Shown: positions 16,138 to 62,628 of the stretch, piece by piece
Numbering within the stretch: position 1 is the stretch's first letter
How the letters are laid out: each line of letters opens with the position of its first letter
DNA from: Candidatus Omnitrophota bacterium
GTDB lineage: Bacteria > Omnitrophota > Gorgyraeia > Zapsychrales > Zapsychraceae
Direction of reading: 5' to 3'
Length of the DNA: 64,000 nt
NCBI GenBank assembly: GCA_015233115.1
Contig: JADFYJ010000009.1
Coordinates: 12,163 to 76,162 of the forward strand
The notes under the pieces: generated by a model
Database searches by the model: none
What the model was told of the DNA's origin: nothing
Seen by the model: only the letters and a program-made list of their open reading frames with translations
Translations under genes and position numbers: made by a program

Positions 16138-17859
16138 ATGAGTATTGCCGGTGAGCATTTAAAAGGATTTGCGCCATATCAGGAGCGTCATTTTTTGAAC
16201 ATCAATGATAATTTAGGCGATTGGGAAACAATTAAAAAGTATTATGAGCTGTTGCTCAATCGTTTGATCACGACTAGCCTTGATATGGAACAATGGGTTC
16301 TGGATCGTTCGGAAATGGAAGCGGCCATAGACCAGCAAAGTTCCATTCTGTATATTCTCATGACTTGCCAAACGGATAATGAGCAAAGGGCAAAGGATTA
16401 CAGCCGTTTTATCGAAGAGATCACACCGGCCATGAAGCCTTATGAACAAAATCTTGACTTATTCTTGCTTAAAAATGTTCAACAATATCCACTCGAAAAT
16501 ACGCGGTACAAATTGTATATTCAAAAAATCCGACAGGACGTAGAGTTGTTCCGGAAAGAGAATATTTTGTTAGAGACGGAAGTTGATCTATTAAGCCAAG
16601 AGTATCAATCTATATGCGGACAGATGGGCGTTGAATTTGACGGACAGGAACATACTTTACCGCAAATGGAAAAATATCTCCACGAACCGGATCGCGATTT
16701 GCGGGAACGGGCTTGGCGCGCGATCAGTAGAAAAAGACTGAGCGTTAAAGATTCATTAAATAAAATATTTGACCGGATGCTGCAATTGCGTGACCAAATC
16801 GGCCGCAACAGCGGATTCGCTAATTACCGGGATTACAAATTTAAAGCATTGCACCGGTTCGATTACACGCCGGAAGATTGTCGCAATTATCATGCGGCTA
16901 TTGAAAAATTCGTAGTTCCAGTTTGGAAAAAAATTTTGTACCGTCGCAGGTTACAAATGAAATTGGATGCCTTGCGCCCGTGGGATACATCTGTTGATCC
17001 ATTGGGCCGGTCGCCTTTGAAGCCTTTTGTCGAGGATCATCAGCTGACAGAAAAATGTTCGAAAATTTTTGCTCGTGTAGATGACTCATTAGGGTACCAG
17101 TTTAAAGAGATGAGTCAGTGGGGAATGTTAGACTTGGAGAGCCGCAAAGGCAAGGCGCCGGGAGGATATCAATCGACCCTGAATGAGGCAAGGAAGCCGT
17201 TTATTTTTATGAATGCTGTGGGAATTGATTCCGATGTGCGGACTTTGCTGCATGAGGGCGGGCATGCATTTCATGCTTTGGCCTGTAGTCATGACCCCCT
17301 ATTAGACTACCGGCATGCTCCTATGGAATTTTGTGAAGTGGCATCCATGAGTATGGAACTATTAGGAGGCGAATTTTTAACCGAATTTTATAGTTCAGAC
17401 GAATTGTTACGCTCTAAATCAGAGCATTGGGAAGATGTGATTTTTATATTAGTGTGGGTTGCCGTTATTGATAGTTTTCAACATTGGATATATGAAAATC
17501 CTCACCACACCAATGATCAAAGGATTAAAATTTGGAAACAGATTCGCTCAAGGTTCGGCGCAGAGGCCGTTGATTGGTCAGGATTCGACGAGGAGCACGC
17601 GTATTTATGGCATAAGCAACTACACATTTTTGAAGTGCCATTTTATTACATCGAATATGGCATAGCCCAGTTGGGAGCCTTGCAAGTGTGGCTGAACTTC
17701 CGGAAGGATTATAAGCGTGCGGTAGGAGCATATAAGCAGGCTTTGGCATTAGGAGGCAGCCGTCCATTGCCGGAATTATTCCAGGCGGCAGGGATTAAAT
17801 TTGATTTCAGCGAAAAGACTATTAAGCCTCTTCTAGACGCTGTCGAAAAAGAACTCTGA
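16138..17859 (+). CDS. pepF: Oligoendopeptidase F (M3B family)
   Basis: HEGGHAFH zinc motif. Length and layout fit PepF. GAGGGG RBS before ATG 16138. Confidence 0.85.
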   Translation: MSIAGEHLKGFAPYQERHFLNINDNLGDWETIKKYYELLLNRLITTSLDMEQWVLDRSEMEAAIDQQSSILYILMTCQTDNEQRAKDYSRFIEEITPAMKPYEQNLDLFLLKNVQQYPLENTRYKLYIQKIRQDVELFRKENILLETEVDLLSQEYQSICGQMGVEFDGQEHTLPQMEKYLHEPDRDLRERAWRAISRKRLSVKDSLNKIFDRMLQLRDQIGRNSGFANYRDYKFKALHRFDYTPEDCRNYHAAIEKFVVPVWKKILYRRRLQMKLDALRPWDTSVDPLGRSPLKPFVEDHQLTEKCSKIFARVDDSLGYQFKEMSQWGMLDLESRKGKAPGGYQSTLNEARKPFIFMNAVGIDSDVRTLLHEGGHAFHALACSHDPLLDYRHAPMEFCEVASMSMELLGGEFLTEFYSSDELLRSKSEHWEDVIFILVWVAVIDSFQHWIYENPHHTNDQRIKIWKQIRSRFGAEAVDWSGFDEEHAYLWHKQLHIFEVPFYYIEYGIAQLGALQVWLNFRKDYKRAVGAYKQALALGGSRPLPELFQAAGIKFDFSEKTIKPLLDAVEKEL

Positions 17860-17861
17860 TC

Positions 17862-17900
17862 GATGAACCACCGACGCGGTGGTCTATCGGTTTAAAAAAT
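17862..17900 (+). terminator. REP-B hairpin plus T-rich tail after pepF
   Basis: GAACCACCGACGCGGTGGTC then TTTAAAAAATAAATATTTTTTC. Confidence 0.5.
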
Positions 17901-48926: not shown

Positions 48927-50507
48927 ATGAATATAATTAAGCATCTTATAATTTTAACAATTTTGGCCGGGAGCTTGTTTTTTCTTCCACCTCCTGCCCG
49001 CGCCTCCAACGTCACTGTCACCTCGGTTTCGTTGCTGGCTCAAAACAGTGGGACCCGTCCAATTCAATTTACCGTATCCTGGGACAATTCCTGGTTTGTC
49101 TCCGGCGCGCCTGGGCCTGACGCCAATTGGGACGCGGTTTGGGTGTTTGCCAAATTTCGTAAAAATTCCGGGACTGGCTGGTCAAATTGGGCGCATGCCA
49201 CGCTGGACAAGACAGTCGGCAATCATACTGCTCCGGCAGGGTCACAAATCACACTCGGCTGTTCACCTGGTGTGGACTGTTCCAACGGAGCCAATACTGT
49301 CAAAGGCATATTTTTTTACCGCAGTGCTACCGGCACCCCCGGCACAGTCACTTTTACCAATTCCGCTATCAACTGGCTTTACAGCACAGACGGTGTAGCG
49401 GATGGCGATTGGGTGGATGTCAAAGTTTTTGCTATTGAAATGGTTTATGTTCCGTCCGGCAGTTTTTGGATCGGCGATCCATCTAAGAACGGGACTGATC
49501 CTTTTTATTCTTATGGTTGTACTTCGCCGAATTGCGCTTATCAGATTACCTCTGAAAACGCAATTACTGTCGGCACAACTAACGGCAACCTTTACTACAC
49601 CAACAGCGTCAACGGCGGCGACCGCGGCACACCCATTCCAGCCGCGTTTCCTAAAGGATATAATGCTTTTTATATTATGAAAACCGAGGTCTCGCAAAAG
49701 CAGTACGCGGAATTTTTAAACACGCTCAATCCAGGCCAGCAATCCGCGCGCTGGGTAACCGGGTATTTTAACTCTAATCGTTATTTCATCAAAAAATCCG
49801 TTGACGCCCGATTTGGCGTGGATGGGAATAATAACGCGGGAGCGGATGGTTCAGCGACTTATAACAGCATGAATGAATCCGACGATGGCGGATGGGTGGC
49901 ATGCAATTATCTTTCGTGGATGGATAATGCCGCTTTCGCGGAATGGGCAGCCTTGCGTCCGATGACGGAATTTGAGTTCGAGAAAGCCGCCCGCGGCGAT
50001 CAGCCAGCTGTGGCTGGTGAATATGCTTGGGGTAATACCACTTTAACTCCGCCCAGTTCAGGTACGCCTTCGCTTAACCGTCAGGCTGGGGAAACAACGA
50101 ATGGCGGGAATTGCAATTACAACAGTGTTATCTCAGGTCCAATCCGGGTTGGATCTTATGCTGGTTCTGGTACGTCGCGGACTGCCGCAGGTGCAGGCTA
50201 TTACGGAGCATTAGATCTTTCAGGAAATTTATGGGAATTCTTGGTAACAGTAGGAAATTTAACGGGTAGAGGTTTTACTGGTGTGCATGGCAGTGGAGCA
50301 TTATCAGGGCAAGGATATGCTGTGCAAAGTTTATGGCCTGGATGGGGAGGGGCGCAAAATGACGGGGCAACAGGTTTGGGCTTGCGCGGCGGCACGTGGA
50401 GCCACACGTCGACGAACGAGTCAACCGCTGACCGGTTCGTCGGGGTGGCCTCGGGCACGAATCGTGTCAGCGATGTCGGGTTTCGTGCCTGCAGGACTTC
50501 TCCTTAG
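48927..50507 (+). CDS. DGR target protein: secreted, formylglycine-generating-enzyme-type (FGE-sulfatase / C-type-lectin fold) with a C-terminal variable region
   Basis: Signal peptide. FGE-family motifs (FYIMKTEVSQKQYAEFL, AFAEWAALRPMTEFEFEKAARG, GLRGGTWSH...GFRACR). The C-terminal 117 nt form the VR. Confidence 0.8.
   Translation: MNIIKHLIILTILAGSLFFLPPPARASNVTVTSVSLLAQNSGTRPIQFTVSWDNSWFVSGAPGPDANWDAVWVFAKFRKNSGTGWSNWAHATLDKTVGNHTAPAGSQITLGCSPGVDCSNGANTVKGIFFYRSATGTPGTVTFTNSAINWLYSTDGVADGDWVDVKVFAIEMVYVPSGSFWIGDPSKNGTDPFYSYGCTSPNCAYQITSENAITVGTTNGNLYYTNSVNGGDRGTPIPAAFPKGYNAFYIMKTEVSQKQYAEFLNTLNPGQQSARWVTGYFNSNRYFIKKSVDARFGVDGNNNAGADGSATYNSMNESDDGGWVACNYLSWMDNAAFAEWAALRPMTEFEFEKAARGDQPAVAGEYAWGNTTLTPPSSGTPSLNRQAGETTNGGNCNYNSVISGPIRVGSYAGSGTSRTAAGAGYYGALDLSGNLWEFLVTVGNLTGRGFTGVHGSGALSGQGYAVQSLWPGWGGAQNDGATGLGLRGGTWSHTSTNESTADRFVGVASGTNRVSDVGFRACRTSP
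50379..50495 (+). other. DGR variable region (VR)
   Basis: 117-nt match to TR at 51662-51778 with 22 differences. 21 of them are at TR adenines. Confidence 0.8.
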
Positions 50508-50623
50508 TGTGGGTTTTGTAAATTTGAAAACAAACAGCCCAGGGGCGTAAGCCCCAAGGCTGAATCGATTGTGAAGAGATTGACGCTGCTGTAAATTGAT
50601 TCTTTGTAAATGACGTCGCTGTT

Positions 50624-50752
50624 GTAGGGGCGATCACCCGATCGCCCGTAACAAAATTGTCGTTTTTGTTGTTTGAATTTTTAAAAAAAGGAATGTTAGA
50701 AAAACGATTGATGGTAAAACGTTGATTCGGGCGATCGGGTGATCGCCCCTAC
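50624..50752 (+). repeat. Inverted pair of REP-A hairpins between the DGR target gene and avd
   Basis: GTAGGGGCGATCACCCGATCGCCCGTAACAAAATTGTCG at 50624. Reverse copy CGGGCGATCGGGTGATCGCCCCTAC at 50728. Confidence 0.7.
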
Positions 50753-50763
50753 ATAAAGCATAT

Positions 50764-51537
50764 ATGACTATTAAAGAAATTTTAGAAATTGAAAATAATA
50801 ATAACGATTCCATTGTTCTATTAAAAGAAGGGATGTTTTTTCGGGCGTATAACCAATCCGCCATGCGGCTTTCAACCCAAATAAAGAAATTTAAAATAAA
50901 TGTGAAACTGATCAAGTATTTGCAAAAAACAATTTTTTATTGCGGTTTTCCGCAAAGTATTCTGCCACAAATTAAGGATATGTGTTTAGCCAAAAGTTAC
51001 CAACCGATGGACCACCGCGTCGGTGGTCCATCGGTAGCCGGAGCGGTGATTTTTGCCAGTGACGTGTCACATGGGTTAAATTTTGATTCATGGACCAAAG
51101 AGATTTTAAAAGAAATAGCTGTGACCGGAGGAGTAAAAAAAGCCAAGCAATTGACACCATCGGTGACACCGGTTGTTGAAAAACATTATGATTTGATCAT
51201 GTGGTTTCTGCCGAAATTGGCGAATTTTCCCAAAGATCAACGCTTTTTATTGGCAGACCGTATCGAAGGCATGTTATTGGATATTCTGGGTATGTTGATT
51301 GAAGCCGTTTTCGCGAACGAAAGGGAAGAAATTTTAAAAAAGGCCAACTTAAAAATCGATCAATTGCGTTATCTCGTGAGAATTACCAAAGACATGAAAT
51401 ATATTTCTTTAAGCCAGTATGATTTTTTTTCATTAAAAATAATAGAAATAGGCCGCATGGTGGGCGGATGGAAAAAGGCTGCGATAGAAAAGACCAGAGA
51501 GCCGGCGTTTACGGATGTTGGCAGCGGTAAGGTATAA
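50764..51537 (+). CDS. avd: DGR accessory variability determinant (Avd, four-helix-bundle family). Has an N-terminal extension and an in-frame GC-rich palindrome.
   Basis: C-terminal half (KHYDLIMWFLPKLANFPKDQRF...IEIGRMVGGWKKA) resembles Bordetella phage bAvd (..IAEVGRILGSWI). nt 50998-51036 CCGATGGACCACCGCGTCGGTGGTCCATCGG encodes PMDHRVGGPSVAG in frame. Confidence 0.65.
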   Translation: MTIKEILEIENNNNDSIVLLKEGMFFRAYNQSAMRLSTQIKKFKINVKLIKYLQKTIFYCGFPQSILPQIKDMCLAKSYQPMDHRVGGPSVAGAVIFASDVSHGLNFDSWTKEILKEIAVTGGVKKAKQLTPSVTPVVEKHYDLIMWFLPKLANFPKDQRFLLADRIEGMLLDILGMLIEAVFANEREEILKKANLKIDQLRYLVRITKDMKYISLSQYDFFSLKIIEIGRMVGGWKKAAIEKTREPAFTDVGSGKV

Positions 51538-51661
51538 AAAGAGAAGTCCAGACCAAAGACCGCGCCGATGAAATCGGGAAATATAGCAATAACTGTTTCC
51601 GGCCGCGGCTGGGAACACGATATAACAGTAAAAAGGTTTTTGGTCGTTTAAAATTGGCCCG

Positions 51662-51778
51662 CGGCATGCGCGGCGGCACGTGGAACAACACGTCGACGAA
51701 CGAGACAACCGCTGACCGGAACAACGGGGCGAACACGAACACGAATCGTAACAACAATAACGGGTTTCGTGCCTGAAG
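51662..51778 (+). other. DGR template repeat (TR)
   Basis: Contains AAC/AAT codons (aac aac ggg gcg aac acg aac acg aat cgt aac aac aat aac) where VR has ttc gtc ggg gtg gcc tcg ggc acg aat cgt gtc agc gat gtc. Lies between avd and the RT remnant. Confidence 0.8.
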
Positions 51779-51789
51779 ACAACTTTTAT

Positions 51790-52006
51790 ATGAATCCATC
51801 ATTGTTTGAACAGATTATTGCCAGAGAAAATCTTTTCATCTCCGCTCACCGTGCGGCTCTTGGGAAAAGATTTCGCGAAAATATCGCGGATTGGAAATAT
51901 CGGATGGAAAATGAAGTTGAAATGCGGTTACATCGGAAGGAAAAAAGTGCGGTTTGCCGATTGGCAATTTGACGAGCCAGTTCTTCGCGAATTTATATTT
52001 GCATGA
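51790..52006 (+). pseudogene. DGR reverse transcriptase, N-terminal remnant (frameshifted and truncated)
   Basis: [48 protein letters not shown] matches the DGR RT N-terminus (bRT LIDQITTWENLLDAYRKTSHGKR...). A frameshift leads to ..[29 protein letters not shown], with a stop at 52006 about 75 codons in. The - strand HEPN/MNT genes start 100 nt later. Confidence 0.65.
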
Positions 52007-52103
52007 GCTGGATTGGTTTGTGTGGTGAAACAAAAAGACTAAGGGTTAAAATGTTGCAAAGAATTTTTACAAGCAATGACGGCCTAGGGTGGCCGTATAG
52101 AAA

Positions 52104-52427
52104 TTAGATCAACCGGATGCCGTGTTTTTTGATTTCGTGAATGATAGCAAGGTCAGAGTGAAAATCTTGAGGGTTGAATCCAATTGGTTCAATGGGGTAA
52201 AGAAGATTAAGGCGGCGCTTAGAAAGCAAATATTGAATGGCGCTGACCGGGTCGGAGAATTTAGATGAAACAACACATAAATCGACATCGCTGTATTTAT
52301 TGGTACGGCCATAAGCATATGAGCCAAACAAAAAAGCTTGCTCAATCGGCAGGTGATCTGCCTTAAGCGATTGAAGATAAAGGCGAATTACTGTTTTTAA
52401 TGTTTTGGATAAAATTTTTTGAGACAT
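52104..52427 (-). CDS. Nucleotidyltransferase (MNT-type, toxin-antitoxin-like)
   Basis: GSYAYGRTNKYSDVDLCVV motif (GS-x9-DxD). Confidence 0.75.
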   Translation of the reverse strand: MSQKILSKTLKTVIRLYLQSLKADHLPIEQAFLFGSYAYGRTNKYSDVDLCVVSSKFSDPVSAIQYLLSKRRLNLLYPIEPIGFNPQDFHSDLAIIHEIKKHGIRLI

Positions 52428-52792
52428 AGCATTAGATTTTTGGTTTTTAATACATATTTTTCGGTGTAAATTTTAGTACATTTTTTGTAAAACATAAATT
52501 TATAGTCGCTGTATCGGCCGGCAATGTTAAATGCGGAGATGGCTTTTAGATCATTGATATCATTGGAAGTCAAAGAAAGGTTAGCCATAACAGCAAGCCG
52601 TTCAAGATCATGAATATAAGGCGGATGCTGTTTAGTATGAAGAGTCACAAGACCTTTTAAAAATTTTTCAAGAGTCAAATGACAAAAAAATAGACAAGCA
52701 TCGTAACGTTTAATTTTAAACAGCCCGGAGACGGTTTTCCAGTCTCGTGAAGCTAATTTTTTCCAATGATTGGCATATTGTTGATGAGTCAT
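52397..52792 (-). CDS. HEPN-domain protein (partner of the MNT)
   Basis: Overlaps the MNT gene by 31 nt in operon arrangement. Helical about 130-aa protein of HEPN type. Confidence 0.55.
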   Translation of the reverse strand: MTHQQYANHWKKLASRDWKTVSGLFKIKRYDACLFFCHLTLEKFLKGLVTLHTKQHPPYIHDLERLAVMANLSLTSNDINDLKAISAFNIAGRYSDYKFMFYKKCTKIYTEKYVLKTKNLMLCLKKFYPKH

Positions 52793-62571: not shown

Positions 62572-62574
62572 ACC

Positions 62575-62628
62575 GTTGGACCACCGCGTCGGTGAGCCAT
62601 GGTCCACCGACGCGGTGGTCCAACGGTC
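62575..62628 (+). terminator. REP-B long palindrome (22-bp perfect stem) after the HypC-radical SAM gene
   Basis: CCGTTGGACCACCGCGTCGGTG-agccatggt-CACCGACGCGGTGGTCCAACGG. Confidence 0.6.

What the first reader, a model, noticed from the sequence alone, without database searches (positions are those of the whole stretch)
48927..52006. Diversity-generating retroelement with adenine-specific VR/TR divergence but a decayed reverse transcriptase
The order is target (FGE-sulfatase/CLec fold, VR at its 3' end) - avd - TR - RT, which is canonical. VR (50379-50495) and TR (51662-51778) differ at 22 of 117 positions. 21 of these are at TR adenines, giving AAC/AAT to TTC, GTC, GCC, GGC, AGC, GAT. There is one C-to-T difference.

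A GNRA-looped GC hairpin (AGCCCAGGGGC-gtaa-GCCCCAAGGCT, 50546-50572) lies downstream of VR, like DGR target-recognition hairpins.

The RT survives only as about 70 N-terminal codons with a frameshift and stop (51790-52006). A convergent HEPN/MNT pair occupies the place where the rest should be. So the cassette either was active recently and then lost its RT (possibly to the HEPN/MNT insertion), or it is serviced in trans by an RT elsewhere in the genome.
Basis: seen in the sequence. Interest (0 to 1): 0.8.

Follow-up and report, generated by a model that had tools for sequence, protein, structure and literature searches.

The report
Diversity-generating retroelement with dead reverse transcriptase
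This is a real bacterial "targeted hypermutation" cassette (a diversity-generating retroelement). Its reverse transcriptase gene has been reduced to two short fragments, so it is most likely a recently switched-off relic, a state already described in other bacteria.

Summary
A 113-nt repeat pair (VR 50379-50491, TR 51663-51775) differs at 20 positions, 19 of them at TR adenines (P = 4e-11). VR lies at the 3' end of a secreted protein with an FGE-type C-type-lectin fold. An Avd gene, fused to a MutS-domain-I-like (MSL) domain, sits between VR and TR.

Only codons 1-48 and about 29 codons around the DGR signature PIGNLTSQ survive, in different frames. Roughly 125 internal codons and the C-terminal 130 codons (including YMDD) are gone. 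No other RT exists in the 64 kb window.

Seven related loci (mostly Omnitrophota) have intact RTs and equally clean VR/TR pairs, so the loss is recent on the point-mutation clock. Three of them also carry a convergent toxin-antitoxin pair against an intact RT. HEPN/MNT here is therefore not in itself the cause.

There are small signs of decay: a 1-nt deletion at the TR 3' end and a genomic palindrome inside avd.

I could not exclude trans-servicing, or intact-RT variants in the population, because the source genome and its reads were out of reach. Degenerate DGR loci of this kind are already published, so this is a new member of a known kind.

The parts
48927..50507 (+). DGR target gene (526 aa). 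It has a signal-peptide-like N-terminus, a beta-rich N-domain and a C-terminal FGE-sulfatase/C-type-lectin-fold domain that carries VR. GenBank MBF0479076.1.
   Evidence: Pfam FGE-sulfatase 1.1e-15, residues 245-521. AlphaFold model pLDDT 83.9, Foldseek top hits are formylglycine-generating enzymes at E 1e-08. None of the 25 single-deviant columns in a 40-sequence alignment is deviant in this protein.
50379..50494 (+). Variable repeat (VR), codons 485-523 of the target. The core is 50379-50491. The 3' end CAGGAC is the fixed VR-type version of the A[G/A]GAC boundary motif.
   Evidence: 19 of 20 mismatches are at TR adenines. Twelve AAC/AAT codons are diversified.
50535..50562 (+). GC hairpin with a GTAA tetraloop, 40 nt after the VR end. 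It is a candidate target-recognition hairpin/cruciform.
   Evidence: DNA fold centroid -11.6 kcal/mol, z -2.0. It is unique in the window. It fits the GRNA-loop, 7-10 bp stem, 4-34 bp distance consensus of PMC3240598 only partly. Relatives have heterogeneous hairpins or none.
50623..50753 (.). Inverted pair of a genome-wide REP-like palindrome (GGGGCGATCACCCGATCGCCC) between the target and avd. It is not a DGR component.
   Evidence: 32-nt arms, 94% complementary. 10 copies of the core in the window against 0 expected.
50764..51537 (+). avd (257 aa): an N-terminal MutS-domain-I-like (MSL) domain fused to a C-terminal Avd four-helix bundle. GenBank MBF0479077.1.
   Evidence: NCBIfam DivGenRetAVD 103.9 bits against a cut-off of 80. 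Pfam bAvd 2e-19 and MutS_I 4e-4. Foldseek matches Taq and E. coli MutS domain I (probability 1.0) and BPP-1 Avd 4dwl (probability 0.82). Only 1 unique deviation at otherwise invariant columns.
51003..51035 (.). Perfect 15-3-15 palindrome of a second genomic repeat family, lying in frame inside the avd linker.
   Evidence: other copies sit just after stop codons at 17859-17891 and 62572-62627. This stretch of Avd is non-homologous and 6 aa longer than in 14 homologues.
51663..51778 (+). Template repeat (TR), adenine-rich (35 A in the 113-nt core). It carries a 1-nt deletion relative to VR just before the AAGAC boundary motif.
   Evidence: All 7 relatives align VR and TR without a gap at this point.
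51790..51933 (+). RT pseudogene, fragment 1: codons 1-48 of a DGR RT.
   Evidence: tblastn with the intact L001 RT: residues 4-52, 64% identity, E 4e-14. Alignment.
51939..52028 (+). RT pseudogene, fragment 2, in a different frame: ...[25 protein letters not shown] followed by a stop. This corresponds to RT residues about 175-202. Everything after it, including YMDD, is missing.
   Evidence: tblastn residues 171-202, 71% identity, E 4e-09.. No other RT-like sequence in the 64 kb at E < 1.
52104..52427 (-). MNT-type minimal nucleotidyltransferase (putative antitoxin), convergent with the RT remnant.
   Evidence: Pfam NTP_transf_2 1.2e-10 and Polbeta 1.3e-08. The G[GS]x9-13DxD motif is present. 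NCBIfam MntA scores only 32 bits against a cut-off of 60.
52397..52792 (-). HEPN-domain protein (putative toxin), overlapping the MNT gene by 31 nt.
   Evidence: Pfam HEPN 4.3e-13. No canonical Rx4-6H motif. The region has lower G+C (0.33-0.41) than the DGR (0.45-0.54).

Best explanation
This is a chromosomal diversity-generating retroelement in an uncultivated Omnitrophota bacterium.

When it was intact (inferred from the family mechanism):
- The avd-TR-RT unit was transcribed.
- The RT, together with the MSL-Avd protein, copied the TR RNA into cDNA and misincorporated opposite template adenines.
- The cDNA replaced VR at the 3' end of the target gene. This re-randomised about 12 Asn-coded positions on the ligand-binding face of a secreted lectin-fold protein.

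The present state (shown):
- The VR still carries that imprint.
- The RT gene has been cut down by two deletions to two out-of-frame fragments that lack the fingers/palm motifs 1-2 and the catalytic YMDD. The cassette cannot make cDNA itself.

Most likely (inferred) it is a recently inactivated, frozen cassette. The target now behaves as an ordinary gene with whatever VR sequence was last installed, and the rest is beginning to erode. The convergent HEPN/MNT module downstream is a neighbour typical of this DGR lineage and is not a proven cause.
For: - Adenine-specific VR/TR: 19 of 20 mismatches at TR-A, P = 4e-11.
- Avd passes the NCBIfam equivalog cut-off.
- The target has an FGE/CLec fold with VR at its C-terminus.
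- The RT remnant aligns to an intact relative only at residues 4-52 and 171-202 and keeps the DGR-type PIGNLTSQ motif. Nothing else in the 64 kb is RT-like.
- Seven relatives share the gene order, have intact RTs of about 330-410 aa, and have VR/TR pairs with 13-22 mismatches. In five of them all or all but one of the mismatches are at TR adenines. The window's pair therefore looks like that of a working element, which points to recent loss.
- Avd and the target show 1 and 0 unique deviations at otherwise invariant columns.
- Early decay marks: a 1-nt deletion in TR at the conserved 3' boundary, unique among 8 loci, and a genomic palindrome inserted in avd.
- Of the 120 closest RT relatives in 5.8 billion proteins, the three that carry GenBank accessions are all from other assemblies.
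- No target paralogue above 54% identity exists in the database that holds this genome's proteins.
Against: - Only 64 kb of a 94-kb contig of an incomplete MAG was visible, so an intact RT elsewhere cannot be excluded. The genome scan used peptide patterns that the remnant does not contain and did not recover the source genome.
- The intact, well-conserved Avd and target, and the clean TR, are equally what continued selection under trans-servicing would produce.
- A single MAG consensus cannot show whether other cells in the population keep an intact RT.
- The TR indel may lie outside the transferred region and be harmless.
Confidence: 0.65

Rival explanations
1. The cassette is still active and is serviced in trans. 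An intact DGR RT encoded elsewhere in the genome uses this locus's Avd and TR RNA to keep diversifying VR. The first ~145 nt of the RT gene directly follow TR. They may be kept because they hold the cis-acting RNA needed for priming.
For: - Avd, TR, VR and target are intact and show no excess substitutions.
- In this clade the RT start codon lies within about 10-30 nt of the TR boundary motif in six of the eight loci, the window included. Any spacer-type RNA element would therefore overlap the retained RT 5' end.
- Trans-diversification of degenerate DGR loci by an intact locus of the same class has been reported in Thiohalocapsa (PMC10907252).
- TR and RT need not be co-transcribed (PMC5758913).
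Against: - No second RT, TR or VR in the 64 kb.
- None of the three top-120 RT relatives that carry GenBank accessions comes from this assembly. This is weak evidence.
- No close target paralogue.
- The TR has a 1-nt deletion at the conserved boundary that no working relative has.
- In the published trans cases the remote loci use the TR of the intact locus, not their own.
Confidence: 0.15
2. The truncated RT is one structural variant, or an assembly artefact. Other cells of the same population carry the full-length RT, and the DGR is active in them.
For: - In Thiohalocapsa, long reads revealed variants with intact RT and TR at loci that looked degenerate in the consensus (PMC10907252).
- The sequence is a short-read MAG seen in one assembly only.
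Against: - Two independent lesions plus a TR indel and a palindrome insertion sit on one haplotype.
- The internal junction lies in a short A-rich tract, not in a repeat long enough to mislead an assembler.
- Nothing in the flanks suggests a chimeric join.
Confidence: 0.12
3. The repeat pair is an ordinary duplicated gene fragment with random divergence, not a DGR.
For: None beyond the existence of a repeat.
Against: - 19 of 20 mismatches fall on the 35 adenines of one copy (P = 4e-11).
- A bona fide Avd and a DGR-type RT remnant lie exactly where relatives have them.
Confidence: 0.01

Closest known systems
Canonical avd-TR-RT DGRs (architecture B1 of Wu et al. 2018, PMC5758913), such as Bordetella phage BPP-1 mtd-avd-TR-brt
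   Same: Gene order is target(VR)-avd-TR-RT on one strand. There is A-to-N divergence between TR and VR, with VR at the 3' end of a C-type-lectin-fold target. An Avd four-helix bundle is present, and the RT has the [LIV]GxxxSQ signature. A fixed sequence difference marks the 3' ends of VR and TR (AGGAC against AAGAC), analogous to IMH/IMH*.
   Different: The RT is a two-fragment pseudogene. The element is chromosomal, not phage-borne. The target is the FGE-sulfatase subtype of the fold (like Treponema TvpA) rather than Mtd. There is almost no spacer between TR and the RT start. The hairpin loop is GTAA rather than GRNA, and the hairpin lies 40 nt from VR.
MSL-containing DGRs (architecture D, Wu et al. 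2018; one is the Legionella DGR)
   Same: A MutS-domain-I-like module accompanies Avd.
   Different: Here and in its Omnitrophota relatives, MSL is fused to Avd in one polypeptide of about 240-275 aa, rather than being the separate accessory gene the survey describes. The MutS Phe-x-Glu motif reads Phe-Phe-Arg.
Degenerate DGR loci of Thiohalocapsa PB-PSB1 (Dore et al. 2024, PMC10907252) and the RT/TR-less Treponema denticola isolates (PMC4891356)
   Same: DGR loci in which key machinery is missing or pseudogenised while VR-bearing targets persist. Small repeat (MITE-like) elements lie inside the degraded loci. In both cases the question of trans-diversification is open.
   Different: In Thiohalocapsa the degenerate loci are redundant copies beside an intact one in a complete genome. 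Here no intact partner is known, the TR is retained next to the dead RT, and the repeats are REP-like palindromes rather than IS-derived MITEs. The T. denticola isolates lack both RT and TR.
[quoted passage not shown]
   Same: Two small overlapping genes, with HEPN upstream of an MNT nucleotidyltransferase. Both Pfam domains score above their cut-offs.
   Different: The HEPN protein lacks the Rx4-6H RNase motif, and MNT scores below the NCBIfam MntA cut-off. Toxin-antitoxin function is not established.

Membership tests
Diversity-generating retroelement (DGR) | A TR/VR repeat pair whose differences are almost all at TR adenines | tested here: met
   19 of 20 mismatches in 113 nt are at TR-A. 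P = 4e-11.
Diversity-generating retroelement (DGR) | VR lies in the 3' part of a protein-coding target, typically in a C-type-lectin or Ig fold | tested here: met
   VR covers codons 485-523 of 526. Pfam FGE-sulfatase hit. The predicted fold matches formylglycine-generating enzymes.
Diversity-generating retroelement (DGR) | RT of the DGR clade with the [LIV]GxxxSQ signature, adjacent to TR | tested here: met
   The remnant reads [12 protein letters not shown]. It is 64-71% identical to the intact RT of L001 over both fragments, and it starts 12 nt after TR.
Diversity-generating retroelement (DGR) | A complete, catalytically competent RT (motifs 1-7 including YxDD) | tested here: not met
   Residues about 50-175 and everything after residue 202, including YMDD, are absent. 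The two fragments are in different frames. There is no other RT in the 64 kb.
Diversity-generating retroelement (DGR) | Accessory variability determinant (Avd) | tested here: met
   NCBIfam DivGenRetAVD equivalog 103.9 bits against a cut-off of 80. Pfam bAvd 2e-19. Foldseek hit to BPP-1 Avd 4dwl.
Diversity-generating retroelement (DGR) | IMH-type 3' boundary and a GC hairpin with a 4-nt GRNA loop within about 4-34 bp of VR (PMC3240598) | tested here: inconclusive
   A fixed VR AGGAC against TR AAGAC difference is conserved in all 8 loci. The hairpin has a GTAA loop, interrupted 5+5 bp stems and lies 40 nt from VR. Relatives have no consistent counterpart.
Diversity-generating retroelement (DGR) | Ongoing diversification of VR in the population | not testable with these tools
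   The Avd cluster has a single member in 15 billion proteins and the nearest homologue is 55% identical. The source genome is absent from the contig index.
HEPN-MNT toxin-antitoxin (type VII) | Adjacent HEPN and MNT genes with domain matches above family cut-offs | tested here: met
   Pfam HEPN 49.9 bits (cut-off 22) and NTP_transf_2 42 bits (cut-off 21). The genes overlap by 31 nt.
HEPN-MNT toxin-antitoxin (type VII) | An Rx4-6H RNase motif in HEPN, and MntA equivalog-level similarity | tested here: not met
   No Rx4-6H motif. MntA scores 32 bits against a cut-off of 60.

The most novel reading that the evidence does not exclude
The cassette is not dead but RT-less by design. Its Avd, TR and the retained 5' stub of the RT gene (acting as the priming/spacer RNA) would be kept under selection because a second DGR RT in the genome services them in trans. 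The convergent toxin-antitoxin pairs that abut the RT in half of the loci examined in this clade would be functional partners, for example stabilising the island or gating RT expression by convergent transcription.
Probability: 0.1. Interest if true: 0.55.

Novelty: new member of a known kind. Interest (0 to 1): 0.3.

Why it matters
It is a clean natural snapshot of how a DGR is switched off. The RT goes first, by deletion, while VR, TR, Avd and the target are still pristine. RT-centred DGR surveys miss such loci by construction, so frozen or trans-dependent cassettes are probably undercounted.

It also adds two small points about Omnitrophota-clade DGRs: MSL is fused to Avd, and toxin-antitoxin pairs recurrently abut the RT. 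None of this changes current understanding of DGRs.

Tried and rejected
1. Exact-protein look-ups of Avd and HydE to recover the source contig and population variants found nothing on record.
The remnant does not contain them, so the source assembly was not retrieved and a second RT in it could not be sought.
3. I tried the accession-number trick. Window proteins are MBF0479040-089. Of the 120 best RT relatives out of more than 8000, the three that carry GenBank accessions are all from other series. This is only weak negative evidence.
4. Three samples share the Avd of relative L006, and I compared them hoping to see VR polymorphism. The target genes are 100% identical, probably re-assemblies of one dataset.
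5. An Rfam scan of 46-56 kb gave only spurious miRNA-family hits on the REP inverted pair.
6. I considered whether the single non-adenine mismatch dates the inactivation. I rejected this because intact relatives L006 and L010 also have one.
7. I considered whether HEPN/MNT insertion destroyed the RT. This is not supported as stated, because different toxin-antitoxin pairs sit in the same place next to intact RTs in L001, L003 and L009. No RT C-terminal remnant lies beyond HEPN.
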